From sequence record ON528734: 64,000 nt of DNA. One strand, given 5' to 3'. Of the stretch, positions 17,266-58,197 are shown in pieces. Under the pieces are notes generated by a model that saw only the letters and a list, made by a program, of their open reading frames with translations, searched no databases and was not told where the DNA came from. A program made the position numbers and the translations under genes. Source of the DNA: Shigella phage ESh24. The stretch's first letter is position 1. Each line of letters begins with the position of its first letter.

Positions 17266-17314
17266 TGCTTCAGTTTTGTGTGTTATAATCTTAATTAAAT
17301 TTGAGGAGAAACAC

Positions 17315-18039
17315 ATGAAACTAATCTTTTTAAGCGGTGTAAAGCGTAGTGGAAAAGATACTACTGCTGATTTTATCATGAGCAATTATTCTGCAGTTAA
17401 ATACCAACTTGCTGGTCCTATTAAGGATGCATTGGCTTATGCATGGGGAGTATTTGCAGCAAACACTGACTATCCTTGCTTAACTCGTAAAGAGTTTGAA
17501 GGAATTGACTATGATCGTGAGACTAATTTAAATCTGACTAAATTAGAAGTAATCACGATTATGGAACAAGCATTTTGCTATCTTAATGGTAAAAGTCCGA
17601 TTAAAGGCGTGTTTGTTTTTGATGACGAAGGACAAGAATCAGTTAATTCCGTAGCATTTAACAAAATTATTGACGTTATAAATAATATTGAAGATCAATG
17701 GTCAGTCCGTCGTCTGATGCAAGCCCTAGGTACGGATTTGATTGTTAATAACTTCGACCGCATGTACTGGGTAAAATTATTTGCTTTAGATTATCTTGAT
17801 AAATTTAACTCAGGTTATGATTATTATATCGTTCCTGATACTCGTCAAGATCATGAAATGGATGCGGCTAGGGCGATGGGTGCTACAGTAATTCATGTAG
17901 TTCGTCCTGGTCAAAAATCCAATGATACACATATTACAGAAGCTGGATTGCCAATTCGTGATGGCGATTTAGTAATTACAAACGATGGTTCTCTTGAAGA
18001 ACTTTTTTCTAAAATTAAAAATACACTAAAGGTACTATA

Positions 18040-18749: not shown

Positions 18750-18779
18750 GTTTACATACTGATGAGGTAGTGATACTAT
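18750..18779 (+). promoter_or_regulatory. early-type promoter (GTTTACA -35, TGATACTAT -10) inside a 10-bp inverted repeat
   Basis: gtttaca at 18750-18756; -10-like element in the loop of hairpin 18760-18789. Confidence 0.5.
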
Positions 18780-18809
18780 TACCTCATCAAAATTAATTAG
18801 GAAAATAAA

Positions 18810-19079: not shown

Positions 19080-19110
19080 ATTTACATAGGGTTTTAGTTG
19101 TGATACTATT
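19080..19110 (+). promoter_or_regulatory. early-type promoter inside a 7-bp inverted repeat
   Basis: tttaca…tgtgatactatt flanked by atagggt/accctat (19086-19117); near-identical to the 18750 promoter. Confidence 0.45.
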
Positions 19111-19138
19111 ACCCTATCAACTACTGAGGAGAATAAAA

Positions 19139-20116: not shown

Positions 20117-20189
20117 TGGGAATTAGCCAAGTTGGTAAGGCATAGCACTTTGACTGCTAGATGCAAAGGTTCGAGTCCTTTATTCCCAG
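20117..20189 (+). tRNA. tRNA-Gln (anticodon TTG)
   Basis: Cloverleaf: acceptor tgggaat/attccca, anticodon loop ctTTGac, T-arm ggttcgagtcc; no encoded CCA. Confidence 0.85.
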
Positions 20190-20190
20190 C

Positions 20191-20277
20191 GCGAGAATGG
20201 TCAAATTGGTAAAGGCACAGCACTTAAAATGCTGCGGAATGATTTCCTTGTGGGTTCGAGTCCCACTTCTCGCACCA
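20191..20277 (+). tRNA. tRNA-Leu (anticodon TAA), type II
   Basis: Acceptor gcgagaa/ttctcgc, anticodon loop ctTAAaa, long variable arm, 3' CCA encoded. Confidence 0.85.
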
Positions 20278-20282
20278 AATTT

Positions 20283-20356
<74 letters not shown>

Positions 20357-20402
20357 ATTTATGACTCGTCGTGAGACGCTCAGTTCTTTATTAGGGACTG
20401 AT

Positions 20403-21011
20403 ATGCATTTTTATCTTTATAAAATAACAAATAAAATTAATAATAAAATTTATATTGGTGTGCATTCTACCGAAAATTTAGATGATGGATATATGGGTTC
20501 TGGTAAATTATTAAAAAGAGCCCAAGATAAATATGGTATAGAAAATTTTTCTAAAGAAATATTAGAGTATTTTGACGATAAAGAATCTATGCTTGAAGCC
20601 GAGAAAAATATTGTCACAGAAGAGTTTTTAAATAGACCAGATGTGTATAATTTAAAACTTGGAGGTGAAGGTGGATGGGATCATATAAATAATTATCCTA
20701 TGACAGATCAGCAACGCGAATTAATTTCATTGGGTGTTAAAAAGGCACATTCTAATGGAAAATTAAAAGGATGGTCTTCAAATGGATTAATGAAGAATGG
20801 CTTTGCTGGTAAAACTCATTCTCAAGAAGCTAAACGTAAAATAGCAAAAGCAAACGAAGCAAAAGTTTCTGTGGATGAAAGAAAAAGAAGAATAGAAATT
20901 TCTAAATTATATGATTTTTCTAAACGTGGCGAATTGTCTAAATATGCTAAGCATATTGGCGTAAGTCATACTCAAGCAAAAAGAATTCTAAATCAAATTA
21001 ACAATATATAA
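20403..21011 (+). CDS. segB: GIY-YIG homing endonuclease in the tRNA cluster
   Basis: GIY-YIG motif FYLYKITNKINNKIYIGVHSTENLDDGYMGSGKLLKRA; start ATG 20403 (RBS aggga), alternative ATG 20361. Confidence 0.8.
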   Translation: MHFYLYKITNKINNKIYIGVHSTENLDDGYMGSGKLLKRAQDKYGIENFSKEILEYFDDKESMLEAEKNIVTEEFLNRPDVYNLKLGGEGGWDHINNYPMTDQQRELISLGVKKAHSNGKLKGWSSNGLMKNGFAGKTHSQEAKRKIAKANEAKVSVDERKRRIEISKLYDFSKRGELSKYAKHIGVSHTQAKRILNQINNI

Positions 21012-21017
21012 ATATTT

Positions 21018-21107
21018 GGAGGCGTGGCAGAGTGGTTTAATGCACCGGTCTTGAAAATCGGCAGTCGCTCCGGCGACTCATAGGTTCAAATCCTATCGCC
21101 TCCGCCA
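21018..21107 (+). tRNA. tRNA-Ser (anticodon TGA), type II
   Basis: Acceptor ggaggcg/cgcctcc, anticodon loop cTTGAaa, long variable arm, CCA encoded. Confidence 0.85.
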
Positions 21108-21112
21108 GTTTT

Positions 21113-21188
21113 GCTGATTTAGCTTAGTAGGTAGAGCAACTCACTTGTAATGAGAAGGTCGGCGGTTCGATTCCGTCAATCAGCACCA
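21113..21188 (+). tRNA. tRNA-Thr (anticodon TGT)
   Basis: Acceptor gctgatt/aatcagc, anticodon loop cTTGTaa, T-arm ggttcgattcc, CCA encoded. Confidence 0.85.
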
Positions 21189-21189
21189 A

Positions 21190-21264
21190 GGCCCTGTAGC
21201 TGGAAGGTTCAAGCAAGCGACTCATAATCGCCAGATGGTGGTTCAATTCCACCCAGGGCCACCA
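21190..21264 (+). tRNA. tRNA with anticodon CAT (Ile2 or Met; Ile by position in T4)
   Basis: Acceptor ggccctg/cagggcc, anticodon loop ctCATaa, T-arm ggttcaattcc, CCA encoded. Confidence 0.8.
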
Positions 21265-21276
21265 AATTATGAATTA

Positions 21277-21363
21277 GGGGAGTTATCCCGTAGAGGTAGC
21301 GGTGTGGACTGTAAATCCATTGTCATTGCGACTCGGGTGGTTCGACTCCATCACTCCCCACCA
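21277..21363 (+). tRNA. tRNA-Tyr (anticodon GTA), type II
   Basis: Acceptor ggggagt/actcccc, anticodon stem-loop gtgga-ctGTAaa-tccat, long variable arm, T-arm ggtgg-ttcgact-ccatc, CCA encoded. Confidence 0.75.
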
Positions 21364-21367
21364 ATTT

Positions 21368-21442
21368 GGATGTGTAGCTCAATGGCAGAGCGATCGCCTG
21401 TTAAGCGATTGGTTATAGGTTCGAATCCTATCACGTCCGCCA
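21368..21442 (+). tRNA. tRNA-Asn (anticodon GTT)
   Basis: Acceptor ggatgtg/cacgtcc, anticodon stem-loop atcgc-ctGTTaa-gcgat, T-arm ggttcgaatcc, CCA encoded. Confidence 0.8.
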
Positions 21443-21446
21443 AATA

Positions 21447-21522
21447 CGAGGCATAGCTCAGAAGGAAGAGCAAGGACCTTCTAAGTCCTAGGTCGTAGGT
21501 TCGATCCCTACTGCCTCGACCA
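21447..21522 (+). tRNA. tRNA-Arg (anticodon TCT)
   Basis: Acceptor cgaggca/tgcctcg, anticodon stem-loop aggac-cTTCTaa-gtcct, T-arm ggttcgatccc, CCA encoded. Confidence 0.85.
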
Positions 21523-26096: not shown

Positions 26097-27065
<969 letters not shown>

Positions 27066-27069
27066 AGTT

Positions 27070-27101
27070 GTTTACTTTCTCCTAAAACTGTGATAGTATA
27101 T
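27070..27101 (+). promoter_or_regulatory. early-type promoter with -10 element in hairpin loop
   Basis: gtttac at 27070-27075; -10-like tgatagtatatt within inverted repeat aactgtga/tcacagtt (27086-27109). Confidence 0.45.
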
Positions 27102-27136
27102 TCACAGTTACTAATTAAAATATTTAAAGGAAACAC

Positions 27137-27718
27137 ATGAAAACGTATAAAGAATTTATCGCTGAAGCTTCTGTGGAAAAGGCCAAAGGCATTAATAAAG
27201 ATGAGTGGACCTACCGTTCGGGAAACGGCTTTGACCCTAAAACGGCTCCTATTGAACGGTACTTAGCTACAAAGGCTTCCGACTTTAAAGCCTTCGCTTG
27301 GGAAGGACTTCGTTGGCGTACCGATTTAAATATTGAAGTTGATGGACTTAAATTTGGCCATATTCAGGATGTTGTTGCTAGTAACTTAGACGCAGCTTTT
27401 GTTAAAGCCGACGGTGACCTTCGTCGCTGGAATTTAAAACTGTTCTCTAAACAGAAAGGCCCGGTGTTTGTGCCTAAAGCTGGTAAATGGGTTATTGATA
27501 ATAAATTAGCTAAGGCTGTCAACTACGCTGGTCTTGAATTCGCCAAGCACAAATCATCATGGAGAAGTCTTGATGCAATGGCCTTCCGTAAAGAATTCGC
27601 CGAGGTTATGACTAAAGGCGGCTTTAAGGCAGAACTAGATACCTCTAAAGGTACGTTTAAAGACGCTAATGTTCAGTACGCTTACGCCGTTGCTAATGCA
27701 GCCCGCGGTAATTCTTAA
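27137..27718 (+). CDS. ipIII: internal protein III-like (capsid-targeting sequence MKTYKEFIAE-A)
   Basis: 193 aa (T4 IPIII is 194 aa); CTS; position adjacent to e. Confidence 0.75.
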   Translation: MKTYKEFIAEASVEKAKGINKDEWTYRSGNGFDPKTAPIERYLATKASDFKAFAWEGLRWRTDLNIEVDGLKFGHIQDVVASNLDAAFVKADGDLRRWNLKLFSKQKGPVFVPKAGKWVIDNKLAKAVNYAGLEFAKHKSSWRSLDAMAFRKEFAEVMTKGGFKAELDTSKGTFKDANVQYAYAVANAARGNS

Positions 27719-27734
27719 TAAAGCCGAGTTCGAA

Positions 27735-27800
27735 CCTGGTAATTGATAAATACAGAAACGGGCAATTCATGTGTGTGAATTGCCTCAAACTTAAAGAATA
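27735..27800. repeat. intergenic direct repeat, copy 1 (core AAATACAGAAACGGGCAATTCATG), contains palindrome ggcaattca…tgaattgcc
   Basis: Second copy at 28360-28450; a partial third (aaatacagaaaacgg) at about 23421-23435. Confidence 0.6.
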
Positions 27801-27826
27801 AAACTATTTACATTTAAAGGAAACAC

Positions 27827-28300
27827 ATGAAAACATATCAAGAATTTATTACTGAAGCAGCTATTAATTCTCAAATTATTGCTGAATCTTTTACTGATCT
27901 TTTGAAATTTAAAAAAGGACAGAAAATCACTGCTGTATTGGATGATGGTACAGAAGTTGAGATGGATGTGCAAGGATATAATTATGCAGTAGATGGAAAA
28001 CTGTATAATAAATCTCATGCTAAATTTGATTCATTTGACGACTTTGTTAATACAGTTGAAGATGAAAAAACTCGTCGATCCATTGCAACTGGTGATGCTA
28101 AGGTTCTTATGGCACATGGTCATGAACGCATTCGCGCTAAACAGAATAAAATGGGTGAAGATAATTTTGCATTAGTCGGTTATCAATCTGGTAAACAAAC
28201 CTATGGTTATCAGCGTACTGCTACCATGTATAACAAAAATGGTAAAATTGCCTTTGTAAATAGTAAAGGTTCTATTCAGTACGTTAAATCATTCAAATAA
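27827..28300 (+). CDS. internal-protein-like protein with capsid-targeting sequence (MKTYQEFITE-A)
   Basis: 157 aa; canonical CTS; body unlike the 27137 product and longer than T4 IPII (100 aa). Confidence 0.7.
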   Translation: MKTYQEFITEAAINSQIIAESFTDLLKFKKGQKITAVLDDGTEVEMDVQGYNYAVDGKLYNKSHAKFDSFDDFVNTVEDEKTRRSIATGDAKVLMAHGHERIRAKQNKMGEDNFALVGYQSGKQTYGYQRTATMYNKNGKIAFVNSKGSIQYVKSFK

Positions 28301-28359
28301 GCAAATAAGAAATATGGGAACAAACTGGACCTCATGATTCTGTGAGGGATTCCCGCCAA

Positions 28360-28450
28360 CCTGTAATAAGGTCGAGCCCAAGTGCGGTAATGGGTAAATA
28401 CAGAAATGGACAATTCATGCGCCACGGAATGGCCCAAACTTAGAGAGAAT
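28360..28450. repeat. intergenic direct repeat, copy 2 (core AAATACAGAAATGGACAATTCATG)
   Basis: ~80% identical to 27735-27800; together they bracket the 27827 gene. Confidence 0.6.
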
Positions 28451-28453
28451 AAA

Positions 28454-28996
28454 ATGAGAACATTTTTAACTGGTCCTTATCTATCCCTGATGAATGCTTT
28501 TACACACCATTCTGATGCTAGAGTAGAAGAAATTTGTAAGAATGATTATCTTCCACCAATGGAAGATGTGCTCAAACAGTACTGCACACTTCGTATAGAT
28601 GGTGGACGTCAATCCGGTAAATCAATTGCTGTGACTAACTTTGCTGCTAATTGGCTGTATGATGGCGGAACAGTTATTGTTCTTTCTAATACTTCAGCTT
28701 ACGCTAAAATTTCTGCAAATAACATTAAAAAGGAATTTTCGCGTTATTCTAATGATGATATACGTTTTCGTTTATTTACTGATTCTGTCCGTAGTTTTAT
28801 CGGTAATGAAGGTCATAAATTCCGTGGGTTATCGCTTTCTCGTATCTTGTACATAATTGACGAACCTATTAAAGCTCCTGATATGGATAAGATTTACAAT
28901 ATCCATATTAAAACGGTACAACACTGTTGTCGAAGCTATAATGCTGAAACAGGTGAAACAGTTCGTCCTCAATTTTTTGTGATTGGAATGCAATGA
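28454..28996 (+). CDS. small P-loop NTPase
   Basis: 180 aa from ATG 28454 (RBS gagaataaa); Walker A GGRQSGKS, Walker B ILYIIDEP. Confidence 0.65.
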   Translation: MRTFLTGPYLSLMNAFTHHSDARVEEICKNDYLPPMEDVLKQYCTLRIDGGRQSGKSIAVTNFAANWLYDGGTVIVLSNTSAYAKISANNIKKEFSRYSNDDIRFRLFTDSVRSFIGNEGHKFRGLSLSRILYIIDEPIKAPDMDKIYNIHIKTVQHCCRSYNAETGETVRPQFFVIGMQ

Positions 28997-30172: not shown

Positions 30173-30450
30173 TGGCTCAATTAAGCGCAGGGTTTGGTTA
30201 TGAGTATTATACTGCACCTCGTCGTGTATCTGCCGCTCCTAAGAAAATTCAAAGTCTTGATGACTTCCAAGAAGTAATTCGTAATGCTTTCCAGGACTAT
30301 GCGCGTTATCTTAAAGAAGATTCACAGGACTGTCTCGAAGAAGATGAAATTGCTTACTATGCGCAGCGTCTTGAACAGCTTAAAAACTTACATGAGGTTC
30401 GTGCAGAAGTTTCAAAGTCTATGAATAAATTGATCAGATTTAAAGAATAA
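30172..30450 (+). CDS. hypothetical protein
   Basis: 92 aa from ATG 30172 (RBS ggaaaaatact). Confidence 0.55.
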
Positions 30451-30452
30451 CT

Positions 30453-30482
30453 GTTTACTTTTCCTCTTGACTGTGGTATAAT
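30453..30482 (+). promoter_or_regulatory. early promoter (GTTTAC -35, TGGTATAAT extended -10) for regB
   Basis: Well-spaced -35/-10; the -10 lies in the loop of an 11-bp inverted repeat (30463-30501) whose 3' arm contains the regB SD aagaggag. Confidence 0.6.
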
Positions 30483-30509
30483 TTTTCTATCAGTTAAGAG
30501 GAGAATAAC

Positions 30510-30971
30510 ATGACTATCAACACAGAAGTTTTTATCCGTCGAAATAAGCTCCGTCGTCACTTTGAGTCGGAGTTTCGTCAAATTAACAATGAGATTCGTG
30601 AGGCATCAAAAGCAGCAGGAGTCTCATCGTTTCATCTAAAATATTCTCAACATCTTCTTGATCGTGCAATTCAACGGGAGATTGATGAGACATATGTTTT
30701 TGAATTATTCCATAAAATAAAAGACCATGTTTTAGAAGTTAATGAATTCCTGAGTATGCCTCCGCGTCCTGACATTGACGAGGATTTTATTGATGGGGTT
30801 GAATATCGTCCTGGACGTTTAGAAATCACAGATGGAAATCTTTGGCTTGGATTTACAGTTTGTAAACCTAACGAGAAGTTCAAAGACCCGTCACTTCAAT
30901 GTAGGATGGCAATTATCAACAGTCGTCGTTTACCAGGAAAGGCTTCTAAAGCAGTAATTAAAACTCAATGA
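30510..30971 (+). CDS. regB: sequence-specific endoribonuclease RegB
   Basis: 153 aa as T4 RegB; MTINTEVFIRRNKLRRHFESEF…; synteny near tk/e. Confidence 0.75.
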   Translation: MTINTEVFIRRNKLRRHFESEFRQINNEIREASKAAGVSSFHLKYSQHLLDRAIQREIDETYVFELFHKIKDHVLEVNEFLSMPPRPDIDEDFIDGVEYRPGRLEITDGNLWLGFTVCKPNEKFKDPSLQCRMAIINSRRLPGKASKAVIKTQ

Positions 30972-33712: not shown

Positions 33713-33925
33713 ATGCTACAATTAACTGAAAAGCAACTTCGCAATCTTACTGTGCTTCAATTAGATGAAATTCGTAGGGAAGTTGGAAATATCATTTCAG
33801 CTTTGCGTCGAGAAGTATCACTCAACCAATCTCCGGCAGACTATACTAGATTGCGAAATTTTGAAAAATACCTTGATAAAGTTAAGGCCGTGCATCGGCA
33901 TAAAGTAAATACAGGACAAAAATGA
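33713..33925 (+). CDS. hypothetical protein
   Basis: 70-aa ORF, RBS aaagggg. Confidence 0.5.
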
Positions 33926-33937
33926 TAGGAGGCCTTT

Positions 33938-34231
33938 ATGGCCTTAAAAGCAACGGCACTATTTGCCATGCTAGGATTGTCATTTGTTTTATCTCCACCA
34001 ATTGAAGCGAATGTCGATCCTCATTTTGATAAATTTATGGAATCTGGTATTAGGCACGTTTATATGCTTTTTGAAAATAAAAGCGTAGAATCGTCTGAAC
34101 AATTCTATAGTTTTATGAGAACGACCTATAAAAATGACCCGTGCTCTTCTGATTTTGAATGTATAGAACGAGGCGCGGAGATGGCACAATCATACGCTAG
34201 AATTATGAACATTAAATTGGAGACTGAATGA
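33938..34231 (+). CDS. rI: lysis-inhibition regulator (antiholin) RI
   Basis: 97 aa with signal-anchor MALKATALFAMLGLSFVLS; matches T4 RI as I recall it. Confidence 0.85.
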   Translation: MALKATALFAMLGLSFVLSPPIEANVDPHFDKFMESGIRHVYMLFENKSVESSEQFYSFMRTTYKNDPCSSDFECIERGAEMAQSYARIMNIKLETE

Positions 34232-35463: not shown

Positions 35464-35496
35464 GTTTACAAGTTGGCAAGGTTATGGTATAGTAAT
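35464..35496 (+). promoter_or_regulatory. early-type promoter (GTTTACA … TGGTATAGTAAT)
   Basis: -35/-10-like elements upstream of a 34-codon leader ORF (35522-35626) and gene 35626. Confidence 0.45.
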
Positions 35497-35625
35497 CTTG
35501 TCAACTGTTAAGGAGAAGAGAATGAAAGTTTTGTTTGTTGTGTATGTAATGATTCAATATAATCACCCAATGTTTACTTATAATCTGGTGAACAACATTA
35601 TTGATATTATTCAAAGGAGTATGTA

Positions 35626-40105: not shown

Positions 40106-40136
40106 GTTTACAAGACAGTTCCTCTGTGGTACTATA
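40106..40136 (+). promoter_or_regulatory. early-type promoter (GTTTACA … TGGTACTAT) with conserved leader
   Basis: Same cassette as at 23036 and 38667. Confidence 0.5.
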
Positions 40137-40163
40137 CAACTATCAACTACGGAGGAACAGAAA

Positions 40164-50635: not shown

Positions 50636-50818
50636 ATGGTTGTGGTTGATAAAGAAATTAAAAAGGGACAGTATTATCTTATTAATGGTAATGCTGTTCG
50701 CGTTACTTACGTAAATGGTTATGATGTTTATTATCTTATACTTAAGTTACATAAACACATGATTTGTGACCGTGCTGTATTTAGTTCAGTTGCTAAGGAA
50801 ATTAAACTCCATGGGTAA
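50636..50818 (+). CDS. small hypothetical protein
   Basis: 60 aa; RBS gaggaattgat. Confidence 0.5.
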   Translation: MVVVDKEIKKGQYYLINGNAVRVTYVNGYDVYYLILKLHKHMICDRAVFSSVAKEIKLHG

Positions 50819-58142: not shown

Positions 58143-58197
58143 TTTATAAGAGATTATGCTTTAATTTATTAGAGTATAATCTCTGTGGAGGAAAAAC

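What the first reader, a model, noticed from the sequence alone, without database searches (positions are those of the whole stretch)
30453..30501. Promoter -10 elements embedded in hairpin loops; the regB hairpin sequesters the Shine-Dalgarno
At regB an 11-bp inverted repeat (cctcttgactg / cagttaagagg) encloses the TGGTATAAT -10, and its 3' arm contains the SD aagaggag. Transcripts reading through from upstream would fold the SD into the stem, whereas transcripts starting at this promoter begin inside the loop and leave the SD free. The same geometry recurs at 18760-18789, 19086-19117, 27086-27109 and at the lysozyme late promoters (26540-26569). This matches the described T4 lysozyme mechanism and appears to be used repeatedly here.
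Basis: partly seen in the sequence, partly recalled or inferred. Interest (0 to 1): 0.4.

Follow-up and report, generated by a model that had tools for sequence, protein, structure and literature searches.

The report
regB promoter-in-hairpin hides its ribosome site
In this T4-type phage the start signal for translating the RNA-cutting enzyme RegB is locked in a conserved RNA hairpin whose loop carries the gene's own early promoter, so probably only transcripts that start at that promoter are translated. The hairpin was drawn in 1986 and is a further example of the known T4 lysozyme trick.

Summary
At regB, 15 uninterrupted pairs (30459-30473 / 30491-30505, 2 G.U) enclose the extended -10 TGgTATAAT and bury the Shine-Dalgarno GGAG. 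It is the most stable long-loop hairpin in the 64 kb. It is under selection: in about 12 Tevenvirinae lineages the promoter spacer and the SD flank covary (cognate -18.6 vs non-cognate -9.9 kcal/mol, p<1e-5), and GGA is paired in 14 of 14.

The predicted cost of opening the regB ribosome site in read-through RNA (17.7 kcal/mol) ranks first of 61 genes. It sits just above the two published cases in this window, genes 49 and e. It falls to 6.9 in RNA started at the predicted TSS.

- Sites 18760 and 27086 are real hairpins around a -10, but they do not touch the SD.
- Site 19086 is not above chance.
- The true further parallels, nrdC.8 (40118-40158) and gene 1, were missed.

The hairpin itself is not new. 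GenBank X04567 (1986) annotates it as inverted repeat D/D', a 'potential terminator', and stem-loops over -10 boxes are known as PeSL cassettes. The translational reading for regB was not found in the literature I could read. Verdict: new member of a known kind; function not yet tested.

The parts
30448..30450 (+). Stop codon (TAA) of the upstream gene vs.3. It lies 8 nt before the first base of the 5' arm.
   Evidence: That a terminating ribosome cannot reach the core of the stem is my inference.
30454..30459 (+). -35 hexamer TTTACT of the regB early promoter (T4-type GTTTAC at 30453-58).
   Evidence: It is invariant across lineages.
30459..30473 (+). 5' arm TTTTCCTCTTGACTG. It is the promoter spacer and doubles as the anti-SD strand.
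   Evidence: It covaries with the 3' arm.
30474..30490 (+). Hairpin loop containing the extended -10, TGgTATAAT (hexamer 30477-82).
30489..30489 (+). Predicted transcription start: an A, 7 nt after the -10. RNA started here lacks the 5' arm.
   Evidence: Spacing rule applied; not mapped here. The analogous mapped start for gene 1 (P1, T4 position 75393; PMC2988021 Table 1) falls in the equivalent position.
30491..30505 (+). 3' arm CAGTTAAGAGGAGAA, containing the Shine-Dalgarno sequence.
30500..30510 (+). GGAGAATAACA: the SD core GGAG, which is also a RegB/S1 target. It matches the consensus GGAGRAYARAA at 10 of 11 positions.
   Evidence: Sequence. Consensus and the single-strand requirement from PMC1702504. 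RegB cutting its own SD from PMC3014915.
30510..30971 (+). regB coding sequence (153 aa, 100% identical to T4 RegB).
40118..40158 (+). Second instance, at nrdC.8: GTTCCTCTGTGGT / ACTACGGAGGAAC, with the -10 TACTAT (40130-35) in the loop and the SD GGAGGA in the 3' arm.
   Evidence: A Dhaka-like orthologue has a covarying stem.
17272..17322 (+). Third instance, at gene 1: spacer AGTTTTGTGTGTT pairs with AACACATGAAACT, which includes the start codon. The -10 TATAAT is at 17284-89.
   Evidence: Pairing is kept by changes in ime09. The mapped P1 start comes from PMC2988021.
26540..26570 (+). Lysozyme (e) hairpin with two late promoters TATAAATA (26537-44, 26550-57). This is the published positive control.
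   Evidence: PMC3014915.
27086..27109 (+). Hairpin around the -10 of the ipIII early promoter. The SD is not involved (PeSL-type).
   Evidence: There is a compensatory C-G to T-A change against T4. X04567 annotates it as inverted repeat A/A'.
18760..18789 (+). Hairpin around the -10 of an internal-protein gene promoter. The SD is not involved (PeSL-type).
35471..35506 (+). Hairpin around the -10 of the mobD.2 early promoter. The SD lies just outside the stem (PeSL-type).
19086..19117 (+). Weak 6-7 bp inverted repeat at the trna.4 promoter. It is not distinguishable from chance.
   Evidence: z = -0.18.

Best explanation
The regB leader is a promoter-embedded translational gate. The 17-nt spacer of regB's own early sigma-70 promoter is complementary to the regB Shine-Dalgarno region.

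RNA that enters from upstream carries both arms. Such RNA would come from early transcripts started at the ipIII promoter or from middle transcripts started at Pvs.7. It folds into a hairpin of about -19 to -24 kcal/mol that buries GGAG, so regB is not translated from it. Because RegB needs single-stranded GGAG, the site would also escape RegB cleavage.

RNA that starts at the regB promoter begins in the loop (about A30489) and lacks the 5' arm. Its SD is open, both for ribosomes and for autoregulatory cutting by RegB. Since the early promoter is shut off 2-3 min after infection, RegB synthesis would be confined to the first minutes.

Shown here: the structure, its statistical excess, its conservation with covariation, and the predicted difference in accessibility. 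Inferred: the TSS position, the existence of read-through RNA, and the effect on translation and cleavage.
For: - **Structure and excess over chance:**
- **Same sequence in T4 itself:**
- **Covariation:** about 12 Tevenvirinae lineages carry different stems that all pair the spacer with the SD flank. Cognate spacer/SD pairs average -18.6 kcal/mol against -9.9 for non-cognate pairs, and the cognate partner ranks first in 10 of 12 rows, permutation p<1e-5. GGA is paired in 14 of 14 sequences. Positions -2 and -4 to -7 from GGA each show 3-5 different pair types.
- **Nested variants:** Karamvirus and Jiaodavirus keep the outer anti-SD:SD helix even though a separate inner hairpin is nested inside it.
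- **Accessibility:** the RBS opening cost ranks regB first of 61 genes, next to the proven cases 49 and e. It drops from 17.7 to 6.9 kcal/mol for RNA from the predicted TSS, and e drops from 16.1 to 1.4-4.1.
- **Not a terminator:** no U-tract follows the stem, and no + strand terminator-like site occurs between 27000 and 30600.
- **An upstream promoter exists:** the middle promoter Pvs.7 is published for T4 (PMC2988021), and a matching motif is present in the window.
- **Strand preference:** G.U pairs make the sense-strand fold 9.9 kcal/mol more stable than the antisense fold for the T4-type sequence.
- **Biological context:** RegB requires single-stranded GGAG and is inhibited by structure (PMC1702504). 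regB expression is known to be tightly limited and autoregulated at this SD (PMC3014915).
Against: - No transcript 5' ends, read-through RNA, structure probing or translation data were available. The TSS is predicted from spacing alone.
- The review of T4 translational control lists e, soc, 49 and I-TevI as inhibitory structures, not regB.
- Similar hairpins around the -10 occur at promoters where the SD is not involved (ipIII, ip 18810, mobD.2). In one lineage of regB itself (L063-65) the hairpin excludes the SD. A hairpin may therefore be selected for another reason, with SD inclusion secondary.
- Krischvirus and Gualtarvirus have regB with no promoter or hairpin.
- Across all lineages the sense-versus-antisense stability difference is not significant (p = 0.08).
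- The short transcript still has a residual 6.9 kcal/mol opening cost.
Confidence: 0.6

Rival explanations
1. The hairpin is a PeSL-type insulator. Its main job is to terminate, pause or attenuate transcription coming from upstream, or to give upstream mRNAs a protective 3' hairpin. The conserved promoter-hairpin cassette also serves as a recombination site for gene shuffling. Burial of the SD is a by-product of a very short intergenic region.
For: - GenBank X04567 (1986) annotates exactly this element as 'put. stem-loop structure; pot. transcription terminator (ORF 62.2)'. It does the same for the ipIII, ipII and denV hairpins.
- Hairpins with no SD involvement exist at ipIII, ip 18810 and mobD.2, and they keep their pairing through compensatory changes.
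- The T4 denV cassette is nearly identical to the regB cassette of Dhakavirus-like phages, as expected for a mobile cassette.
Against: - There is no U-tract after the stem in any lineage, and it is not called by the terminator scan.
- The 5' partner of GGA is kept in 14 of 14 lineages, including those that already have an independent inner hairpin. That is unnecessary for a mere terminator or stabiliser.
- This rival is not exclusive of the translational gate; both could hold.
Confidence: 0.25
2. The inverted repeat acts on DNA, not RNA. It would form a cruciform or a symmetric protein-binding site over the -10 that modulates promoter activity, for example the unexplained shut-off of early promoters.
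For: The repeat straddles the -10 of several early promoters. The shut-off mechanism of early promoters is stated to be not fully understood (PMC3014915; PMC2988021).
Against: - Only about 5 of 16 early promoters have such a repeat.
- Stem sequences differ completely between lineages, so there is no common protein site.
- G.U pairs make the T4-type regB, nrdC.8, gene 1 and mobD.2 stems 7-11 kcal/mol more stable as sense RNA than as antisense. In double-stranded DNA these positions are mismatches in a cruciform.
- Loops of 8-21 nt are unfavourable for extrusion.
Confidence: 0.05
3. The complementarity is chance, arising between a pyrimidine-rich promoter spacer and a purine-rich SD.
For: Cross-paired spacers and SD regions from unrelated promoters still reach about -6 to -10 kcal/mol because CTCC-like and GGAG-like runs are common.
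Against: - z = -6.2, and 0 of 240 cross pairs reach the observed energy.
- It is the strongest such hairpin in 64 kb.
- Lineage-specific compensatory changes give p<1e-5.
Confidence: 0.02

Closest known systems
T4 lysozyme (gene e) leader hairpin, and the like cases soc, 49, I-TevI, I-TevII/III, Aeh1 mobE (McPheeters et al. 1986; reviewed in PMC3014915)
   Same: The SD and/or AUG is paired with an upstream strand. A promoter lies inside the hairpin, so its transcripts lack the 5' strand and are translatable, while read-through RNA is silent. The predicted opening cost is the same size: regB 17.7, gene 49 16.6, e 16.1 kcal/mol.
   Different: In those cases the embedded promoter is a late one (gp55, TATAAATA), and the hairpin delays translation until late. 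Here it is an early sigma-70 promoter whose own spacer is the anti-SD strand, so translation would be restricted to the earliest RNA. The buried SD is also the autoregulatory RegB cleavage site. No experimental proof exists for regB.
PeSL cassettes (promoter-early stem-loop; Arbiol et al. 2010, PMC2839356; Comeau et al. 2014, PMC4122927)
   Same: A strong early promoter with an AT-rich upstream region, a stem-loop lying between -35 and -10 or over the -10, then an SD and ATG. The cassette is repeated in hyperplastic regions and shared between different genes (T4 denV and Dhaka-like regB).
   Different: PeSL stem-loops are interpreted only as terminators/attenuators and recombination sites. Neither paper mentions translation or ribosomes. 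For PST/T4 the stem-loops are described as lying just upstream of the promoter. The regB, nrdC.8 and gene 1 stems specifically include the ribosome site and have no U-tract.
'imp. inverted repeat D/D'' in GenBank X04567 (T4 58.3-65.5 kb early region, 1986)
   Same: It is the same element in T4, whose sequence is identical to the window. It is annotated as enclosing the '-10 region (ORF 61.9)' and overlapping the 'rRNA binding site (ORF 61.9)'.
   Different: It is annotated as a potential transcription terminator of the upstream ORF. No translational role is given in the record, and no comparative evidence.
RegB autoregulation at its own SD (Sanson & Uzan 1993; Piesiniene et al. 2004; summarised in PMC3014915)
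   Same: The same GGAG (30500-03) is the site that RegB cuts in its own mRNA. GGAG is conserved as the regB SD across T4-related phages.
   Different: That control acts on single-stranded SD. The hairpin would define which transcripts are subject to it. I did not find this link stated in the literature I could read.

Membership tests
Promoter-embedded TIR-sequestering hairpin (T4 e / soc / 49 / I-TevI type) | SD and/or start codon base-paired in a stable helix in the long transcript | tested here: met
   15-bp stem containing GGAG. Opening cost 17.7 kcal/mol, rank 1 of 61.
Promoter-embedded TIR-sequestering hairpin (T4 e / soc / 49 / I-TevI type) | A promoter placed so that its transcripts start inside the hairpin and lack the 5' strand | tested here: met
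   The -10 lies in the loop and the 5' arm is the spacer. The start itself is predicted at 30489, not mapped.
Promoter-embedded TIR-sequestering hairpin (T4 e / soc / 49 / I-TevI type) | The embedded promoter is a late promoter (TATAAATA) | tested here: not met
   It is GTTTAC-N17-TGnTATAAT, an early sigma-70 type promoter. This is a difference in timing, not in mechanism.
Promoter-embedded TIR-sequestering hairpin (T4 e / soc / 49 / I-TevI type) | Read-through transcripts from upstream promoters exist | tested here: inconclusive
   No + strand terminator-like site between 27000 and 30600. Upstream there is the published T4 middle promoter Pvs.7 and an early promoter at 27071. No RNA data.
Promoter-embedded TIR-sequestering hairpin (T4 e / soc / 49 / I-TevI type) | Long transcripts poorly translated, short transcripts well translated | not testable with these tools
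   Only the predicted accessibility difference is available, 17.7 vs 6.9 kcal/mol.
PeSL (promoter-early stem-loop cassette) | Strong sigma-70-like early promoter in an intergenic region, followed by SD and ATG | tested here: met
PeSL (promoter-early stem-loop cassette) | Stable stem-loop within or overlapping the promoter | tested here: met
   The position class 'overlapping the -10' is described in PMC2839356.
PeSL (promoter-early stem-loop cassette) | Stem-loop acts as a terminator or attenuator of upstream transcription | not testable with these tools
   There is no U-tract, and it is not called terminator-like. Activity was not assayed.
PeSL (promoter-early stem-loop cassette) | Cassette sequence shared between loci, allowing modular exchange | tested here: met
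   The T4 denV cassette is nearly identical to the regB cassette of Dhaka-like phages. A family of related cassettes occurs in the window.
Intrinsic (Rho-independent) terminator | G+C-rich stem followed directly by a run of U | tested here: not met
   The stem is followed by AGAAUAACAUG. It is absent from the terminator scans.
RegB/S1 cleavage site | Single-stranded GGAG followed by an A-rich 7 nt (GGAGRAYARAA) | tested here: met
   GGAGAATAACA matches 10 of 11 positions (against PMC1702504). It is single-stranded only in the short transcript.
Rfam families | Match to any curated RNA family | tested here: not met
   Only tRNAs were found in 16000-52000.

The most novel reading that the evidence does not exclude
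Tevenvirinae carry a portable class of 'self-insulating' early expression cassettes in which the promoter spacer is the anti-SD strand. A gene equipped with one is then translated only from RNA made at its own promoter, whatever reads through from upstream. The cassette moves between genes: denV in T4, regB in Dhaka-like phages, and also nrdC.8 and gene 1. For regB it additionally decides which transcripts are exposed to RegB autoregulatory cleavage.
Probability: 0.4. Interest if true: 0.55.

Novelty: new member of a known kind. Interest (0 to 1): 0.4.

Why it matters
RegB is the nuclease that ends the early period of T4 infection by cutting early mRNAs at their ribosome sites, and its dose is known to be tightly limited. 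A gate that ties RegB synthesis to transcripts from a promoter active for only 2-3 minutes would be a third layer of control, beside promoter shut-off and self-cleavage. It would also explain why middle-period read-through RNA does not keep making the enzyme.

More broadly, the stem-loops of PeSL cassettes have been read only as terminators. Showing that a subset (regB, nrdC.8, gene 1, T4 denV) are translational gates would change how these very common cassettes are annotated in T4-like phage genomes. It would also offer a compact, portable design for promoter-of-origin-specific translation.

Tried and rejected
- **MAFFT alignment for RNAalifold and pair counting:** the stems sit in different registers relative to the -35, -10 and SD, so the columns do not correspond. 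I replaced it with a cross-pairing energy test and a GGA-anchored pair table.
- **The repeat finder on the whole window:** the output was dominated by short palindromes and allows Watson-Crick pairs only. I replaced it with my own hairpin scan.
- **Intrinsic terminator:** rejected. There is no U-tract and no call by the scanner.
- **Chance:** rejected.
- **Sense versus antisense folding as proof of an RNA-level structure:** clear for the window's own hairpins but not significant across lineages (p = 0.08), so I used it only as weak support.
- **Rfam:** no family matched.
- **Literature I could not read:** Valerie et al. 1986, Piesiniene et al. 2004 and Miller et al. 2003 are not held. A prior statement of the translational idea for regB in those papers cannot be excluded.
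- **Mapped T4 early TSS or RNA-seq evidence at regB:** searches found nothing usable.
- **Site 19086-19117:** rejected as a significant hairpin.

Full report
**What the window is.** The window is a Tequatrovirus (T4-type) genome segment, 95-99% identical over the regB region to hundreds of T4-like phages. It is oriented so that the early genes run on the + strand. The ORF at 30510-30971 is regB; its protein is 100% identical to T4 RegB. The 66 nt around the promoter are identical in T4 itself, so everything below applies to T4.

**Checking the observation at regB.** The sequence reads GTTTAC (30453-58), a 17-nt spacer, TGgTATAAT (hexamer 30477-82), then ...CAGTTAAGAGGAGAATAAC ATG. The promoter scan reports TTTACT-17-TATAAT with TG.
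- The helix actually runs for 15 uninterrupted pairs, 30459-73 / 30491-505, with two G.U pairs and a 17-nt loop that holds the whole extended -10.
- GGAG (30500-03) lies in the 3' arm.
- Folding 30440-30530 gives -24 kcal/mol, z = -3.1.
- When only pairs that enclose the -10 are allowed, the energy is -23.1 kcal/mol, z = -6.2 against shuffles that keep the -35, TG and -10. None of 240 controls that join the spacer of one promoter to the leader of another reaches it.
- By the usual spacing rule the transcript should start at A30489, 2 nt before the 3' arm. This start is predicted, not mapped.

- 18760-89 is a perfect 10-11 bp repeat around TGaTACTAT (z = -3.6).
- 27086-109 is an 8-bp repeat around TGaTAGTAT (z = -3.7).
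- In both, the SD lies well outside the stem, and the predicted cost of opening the ribosome site is low whether or not the 5' arm is present: 2.5-2.6 kcal/mol long, 1.4-2.1 short.
- 19086-117 is a 6-7 bp repeat no better than shuffles (z = -0.18).
- 26540-70 is the published lysozyme hairpin with its two TATAAATA late promoters (PMC3014915).

**Is it more than chance?** I scanned both strands of the 64 kb for uninterrupted stems of at least 9 pairs with loops of 8-24 nt and energy of -9 kcal/mol or lower.
- The scan finds 26 hairpins on the + strand, against 12 ± 4 in Markov-1 random sequences.
- The two most stable anywhere are regB (-18.7) and nrdC.8 (-17.9). Only 1 of 30 random 64-kb sequences contains even one hairpin at -17.9 or below.
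- Four of the 26 have an early-promoter -10 in the loop, against 0.07 expected from random placement (P<5e-5).
- Over 16 candidate early promoters, cognate spacer/leader pairs are more stable than permuted pairs (mean -9.1 vs -6.5 kcal/mol, p = 0.00075). The effect is carried by five promoters.

**Comparative evidence.** I collected regB loci from named genera with tblastn and from IMG/VR, which gave 43 distinct upstream regions. In Tequatro-, Mosig-, Gelderland-, Dhaka- and Roskildevirus and several unnamed lineages, the stretch right after GTTTAC is complementary to the SD flank, but with different sequences:

| Lineage | 5' arm | 3' arm |
|---|---|---|
| T4 | TTTTCCTCTTGACTG | CAGTTAAGAGGAGAA |
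| Mosigvirus | TTCTCCTCTAGTTG | CAACTAGAGGAGAA |
| Dhakavirus | TCTCCTGTAG | CTACAGGAGA |
| L049 | TCTCCTGTAAG | CTTACAGGAGA |
| L045 | ATCTCCTTTTAGT | ACTAAAAGGAGAT |
| L044 | ATCCTCATTTG | CAAATGAGGAT |
| L055 | CCTCCTTTT | GAAAGGAGG |
| Cronus | CTCCTCTTG | CAAGAGGAG |

- Karamvirus and Jiaodavirus have an independent inner hairpin over the -10 and still keep an outer TCTCC/GGAGA or TTTCCTT/AAGGAGA helix.
- A 12 x 12 cross-pairing matrix gives cognate -18.6 vs non-cognate -9.9 kcal/mol. The cognate partner ranks first in 10 of 12 rows, permutation p<1e-5.
- Anchored on GGA, that triplet is paired in 14 of 14 sequences. Positions -2 and -4 to -7 each show three to five different standard pair types.
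- Exceptions: one Klebsiella-phage lineage (L063-65) has a hairpin over the -10 that excludes the SD. In Gaprivervirus and Tegunavirus the -10 region itself pairs with the SD/AUG. Krischvirus and Gualtarvirus have no intergenic promoter at all.
- A MAFFT alignment was unusable for column-based covariation, because the stems sit in different registers.

**How the ribosome site compares with known cases.** I mapped 61 gene starts from the T4 annotation into the window. For each I computed the ensemble free-energy cost of making positions -15 to +5 single-stranded in a -120 to +60 context.
- The top of the list is regB 17.7, gene 49 16.6, e 16.1, nrdC.8 15.6, gene 1 14.2 and rI 14.0 kcal/mol. All other genes are at or below 9.6, with a median near 5.
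- Genes 49 and e are the two experimentally established sequestered initiation regions that lie in this window (PMC3014915), so they serve as positive controls.

Opening cost (kcal/mol) in read-through RNA versus RNA starting at the embedded promoter:

| Gene | Read-through | From embedded promoter |
|---|---|---|
| regB | 17.7 | 6.9 |
| nrdC.8 | 15.6 | 3.4 |
| gene 1 | 14.2 | 4.1 |
| e | 16.1 | 1.4-4.1 |

For gene 1 the published mapped start of P1 (T4 75393; PMC2988021 Table 1) corresponds to window 17296. That lies between the arms, as the model requires.

**Is there read-through?** This is inferred, not shown.
- The vs.3 stop codon (30448-50) lies 8 nt before the stem.
- No + strand terminator-like site occurs between 27000 and 30600.
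- An early promoter lies at 27071.
- The published T4 middle promoter Pvs.7 (64382) has a plausible counterpart near 28834-28867.
- The hairpin has no U-tract, so it is not an intrinsic terminator.

**What was already known.**
- GenBank X04567, the 1986 sequence of the T4 58.3-65.5 kb region, annotates 'imp. inverted repeat D' and D' as a 'put. stem-loop structure; pot. transcription terminator (ORF 62.2)'. The repeat encloses the 'pot. -10 region (ORF 61.9)' and overlaps the 'pot. rRNA binding site (ORF 61.9)'. ORF 61.9 is regB.
- The same record marks repeats A (ipIII, which is window 27086-109), B (ipII) and C (denV, with its ribosome site in C').
[quoted passage not shown] They read them as terminators/attenuators and recombination sites and never mention translation.
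- The 2010 review of T4 post-transcriptional control lists e, soc, 49 and I-TevI as inhibitory structures, all with late promoters. [quoted passage not shown]
- RegB needs an 11-nt single-stranded site GGAGRAYARAA and is inhibited by secondary structure (PMC1702504). The regB site GGAGAATAACA matches at 10 of 11 positions.
- I could not read Valerie 1986, Piesiniene 2004 or Miller 2003.

**Interpretation.** The best-supported reading is a translational gate of the lysozyme type built around an early promoter. Read-through RNA folds and hides the SD from ribosomes and from RegB. Promoter-proximal RNA is open to both.
- What favours specific selection on SD pairing, rather than on 'a hairpin' in general, is the universal pairing of GGA, the retention of the anti-SD helix outside an inner hairpin, and the lack of any terminator tail.
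- The main rival is the PeSL view (terminator, attenuator or stabiliser plus recombination cassette). It is supported by the class of -10 hairpins that do not touch the SD.
- These SD-free hairpins also keep their pairing by compensatory changes. At ipIII a C-G pair is replaced by T-A relative to T4, at mobD.2 a G.U by A-U, and at gene 1 two pairs change in ime09.
- The PeSL view is also supported by the near identity of the T4 denV cassette with the regB cassette of Dhaka-like phages. The two views are compatible.
- A DNA-level role is unlikely, because the stems contain sense-specific G.U pairs (regB, nrdC.8, gene 1 and mobD.2 are 7-11 kcal/mol more stable as sense RNA) and share no common sequence. 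Across all lineages this asymmetry is not significant (p = 0.08).
- nrdC.8 orthologues repeat the pattern: a Dhaka-like phage has ATCTCCAGTAG/CTACTGGAGGT in place of GTTCCTCTGT/ACGGAGGAAC, while Mosigvirus has only a hairpin over the -10.

**Verdict.** The structure is 40 years old in the database, and the mechanism is a known one. What appears new is assigning that mechanism to regB (and to nrdC.8, gene 1 and T4 denV), with an early rather than a late promoter, together with the covariation evidence. It remains untested experimentally.

Noticed in passing
window 27700-28420 (and the whole window): denV (T4 endonuclease V) has no tblastn hit anywhere in the 64 kb. Where T4 has ipII-denV, this phage has a single 157-aa internal-protein-like ORF (27827-28300), followed by a 105-nt spacer with no recognisable promoter before vs.8.
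   Followed up: partly
window 18740, 19070, 23025, 38656, 40095, 50565: A family of near-identical early-promoter cassettes (ttcacaaagttgTTTACA ... TGnTACTATacaactatcaacta) recurs upstream of unrelated small genes. This is the PeSL-like repeat pattern. T4 denV upstream even cross-matched the window's trna.4 upstream in blastn.
   Followed up: partly
L057/L050 (Dhaka-like regB upstream) vs L014:1718-1779 (T4 denV upstream): The promoter-hairpin-SD cassette in front of T4 denV (GTTTACATCTCCTGTAGGTATGATACTATAGACCTATCAACTACAGGAGAA) is almost identical to the one in front of regB in Dhakavirus-like phages. This suggests the cassette moved between genes.
   Followed up: partly
window 33920-33960 (rI start 33938): The rI initiation region has its own local hairpin, in which SD GGAGGCC pairs with GGCCUU just after the AUG. 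Its opening cost is 14 kcal/mol, sixth highest of 61 genes. No embedded promoter was seen.
   Followed up: no
L018 (Gaprivervirus VR25) and L022 (Tegunavirus) regB upstream: In these genera the -10 region itself (for example GTTATGATTATC) pairs with the SD/AUG region (GAGATAATCATGAC). This is a different hairpin with the same logic.
   Followed up: no
window 27760-27785: A stable hairpin GGGCAATTC/GAATTGCCT (-11.7 kcal/mol) lies between the ipIII-like gene and the next internal-protein gene. It has no T-run on the + strand, and the terminator scan calls it on the - strand only.
   Followed up: no
window 20117-21519: Nine tRNA genes on the + strand (Rfam). The ime09 record annotates the homologous tRNAs on the opposite strand to their neighbouring genes, which looks like an annotation error in that record.
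   Followed up: no
window 50666-50699 and 58149-58184: Two further strong hairpins (-15.5 and -15.2 kcal/mol, 13-14 bp stems, 8-nt loops) lie inside or next to coding regions (55.6 region; 58149). They are not linked to any promoter I identified.
   Followed up: no
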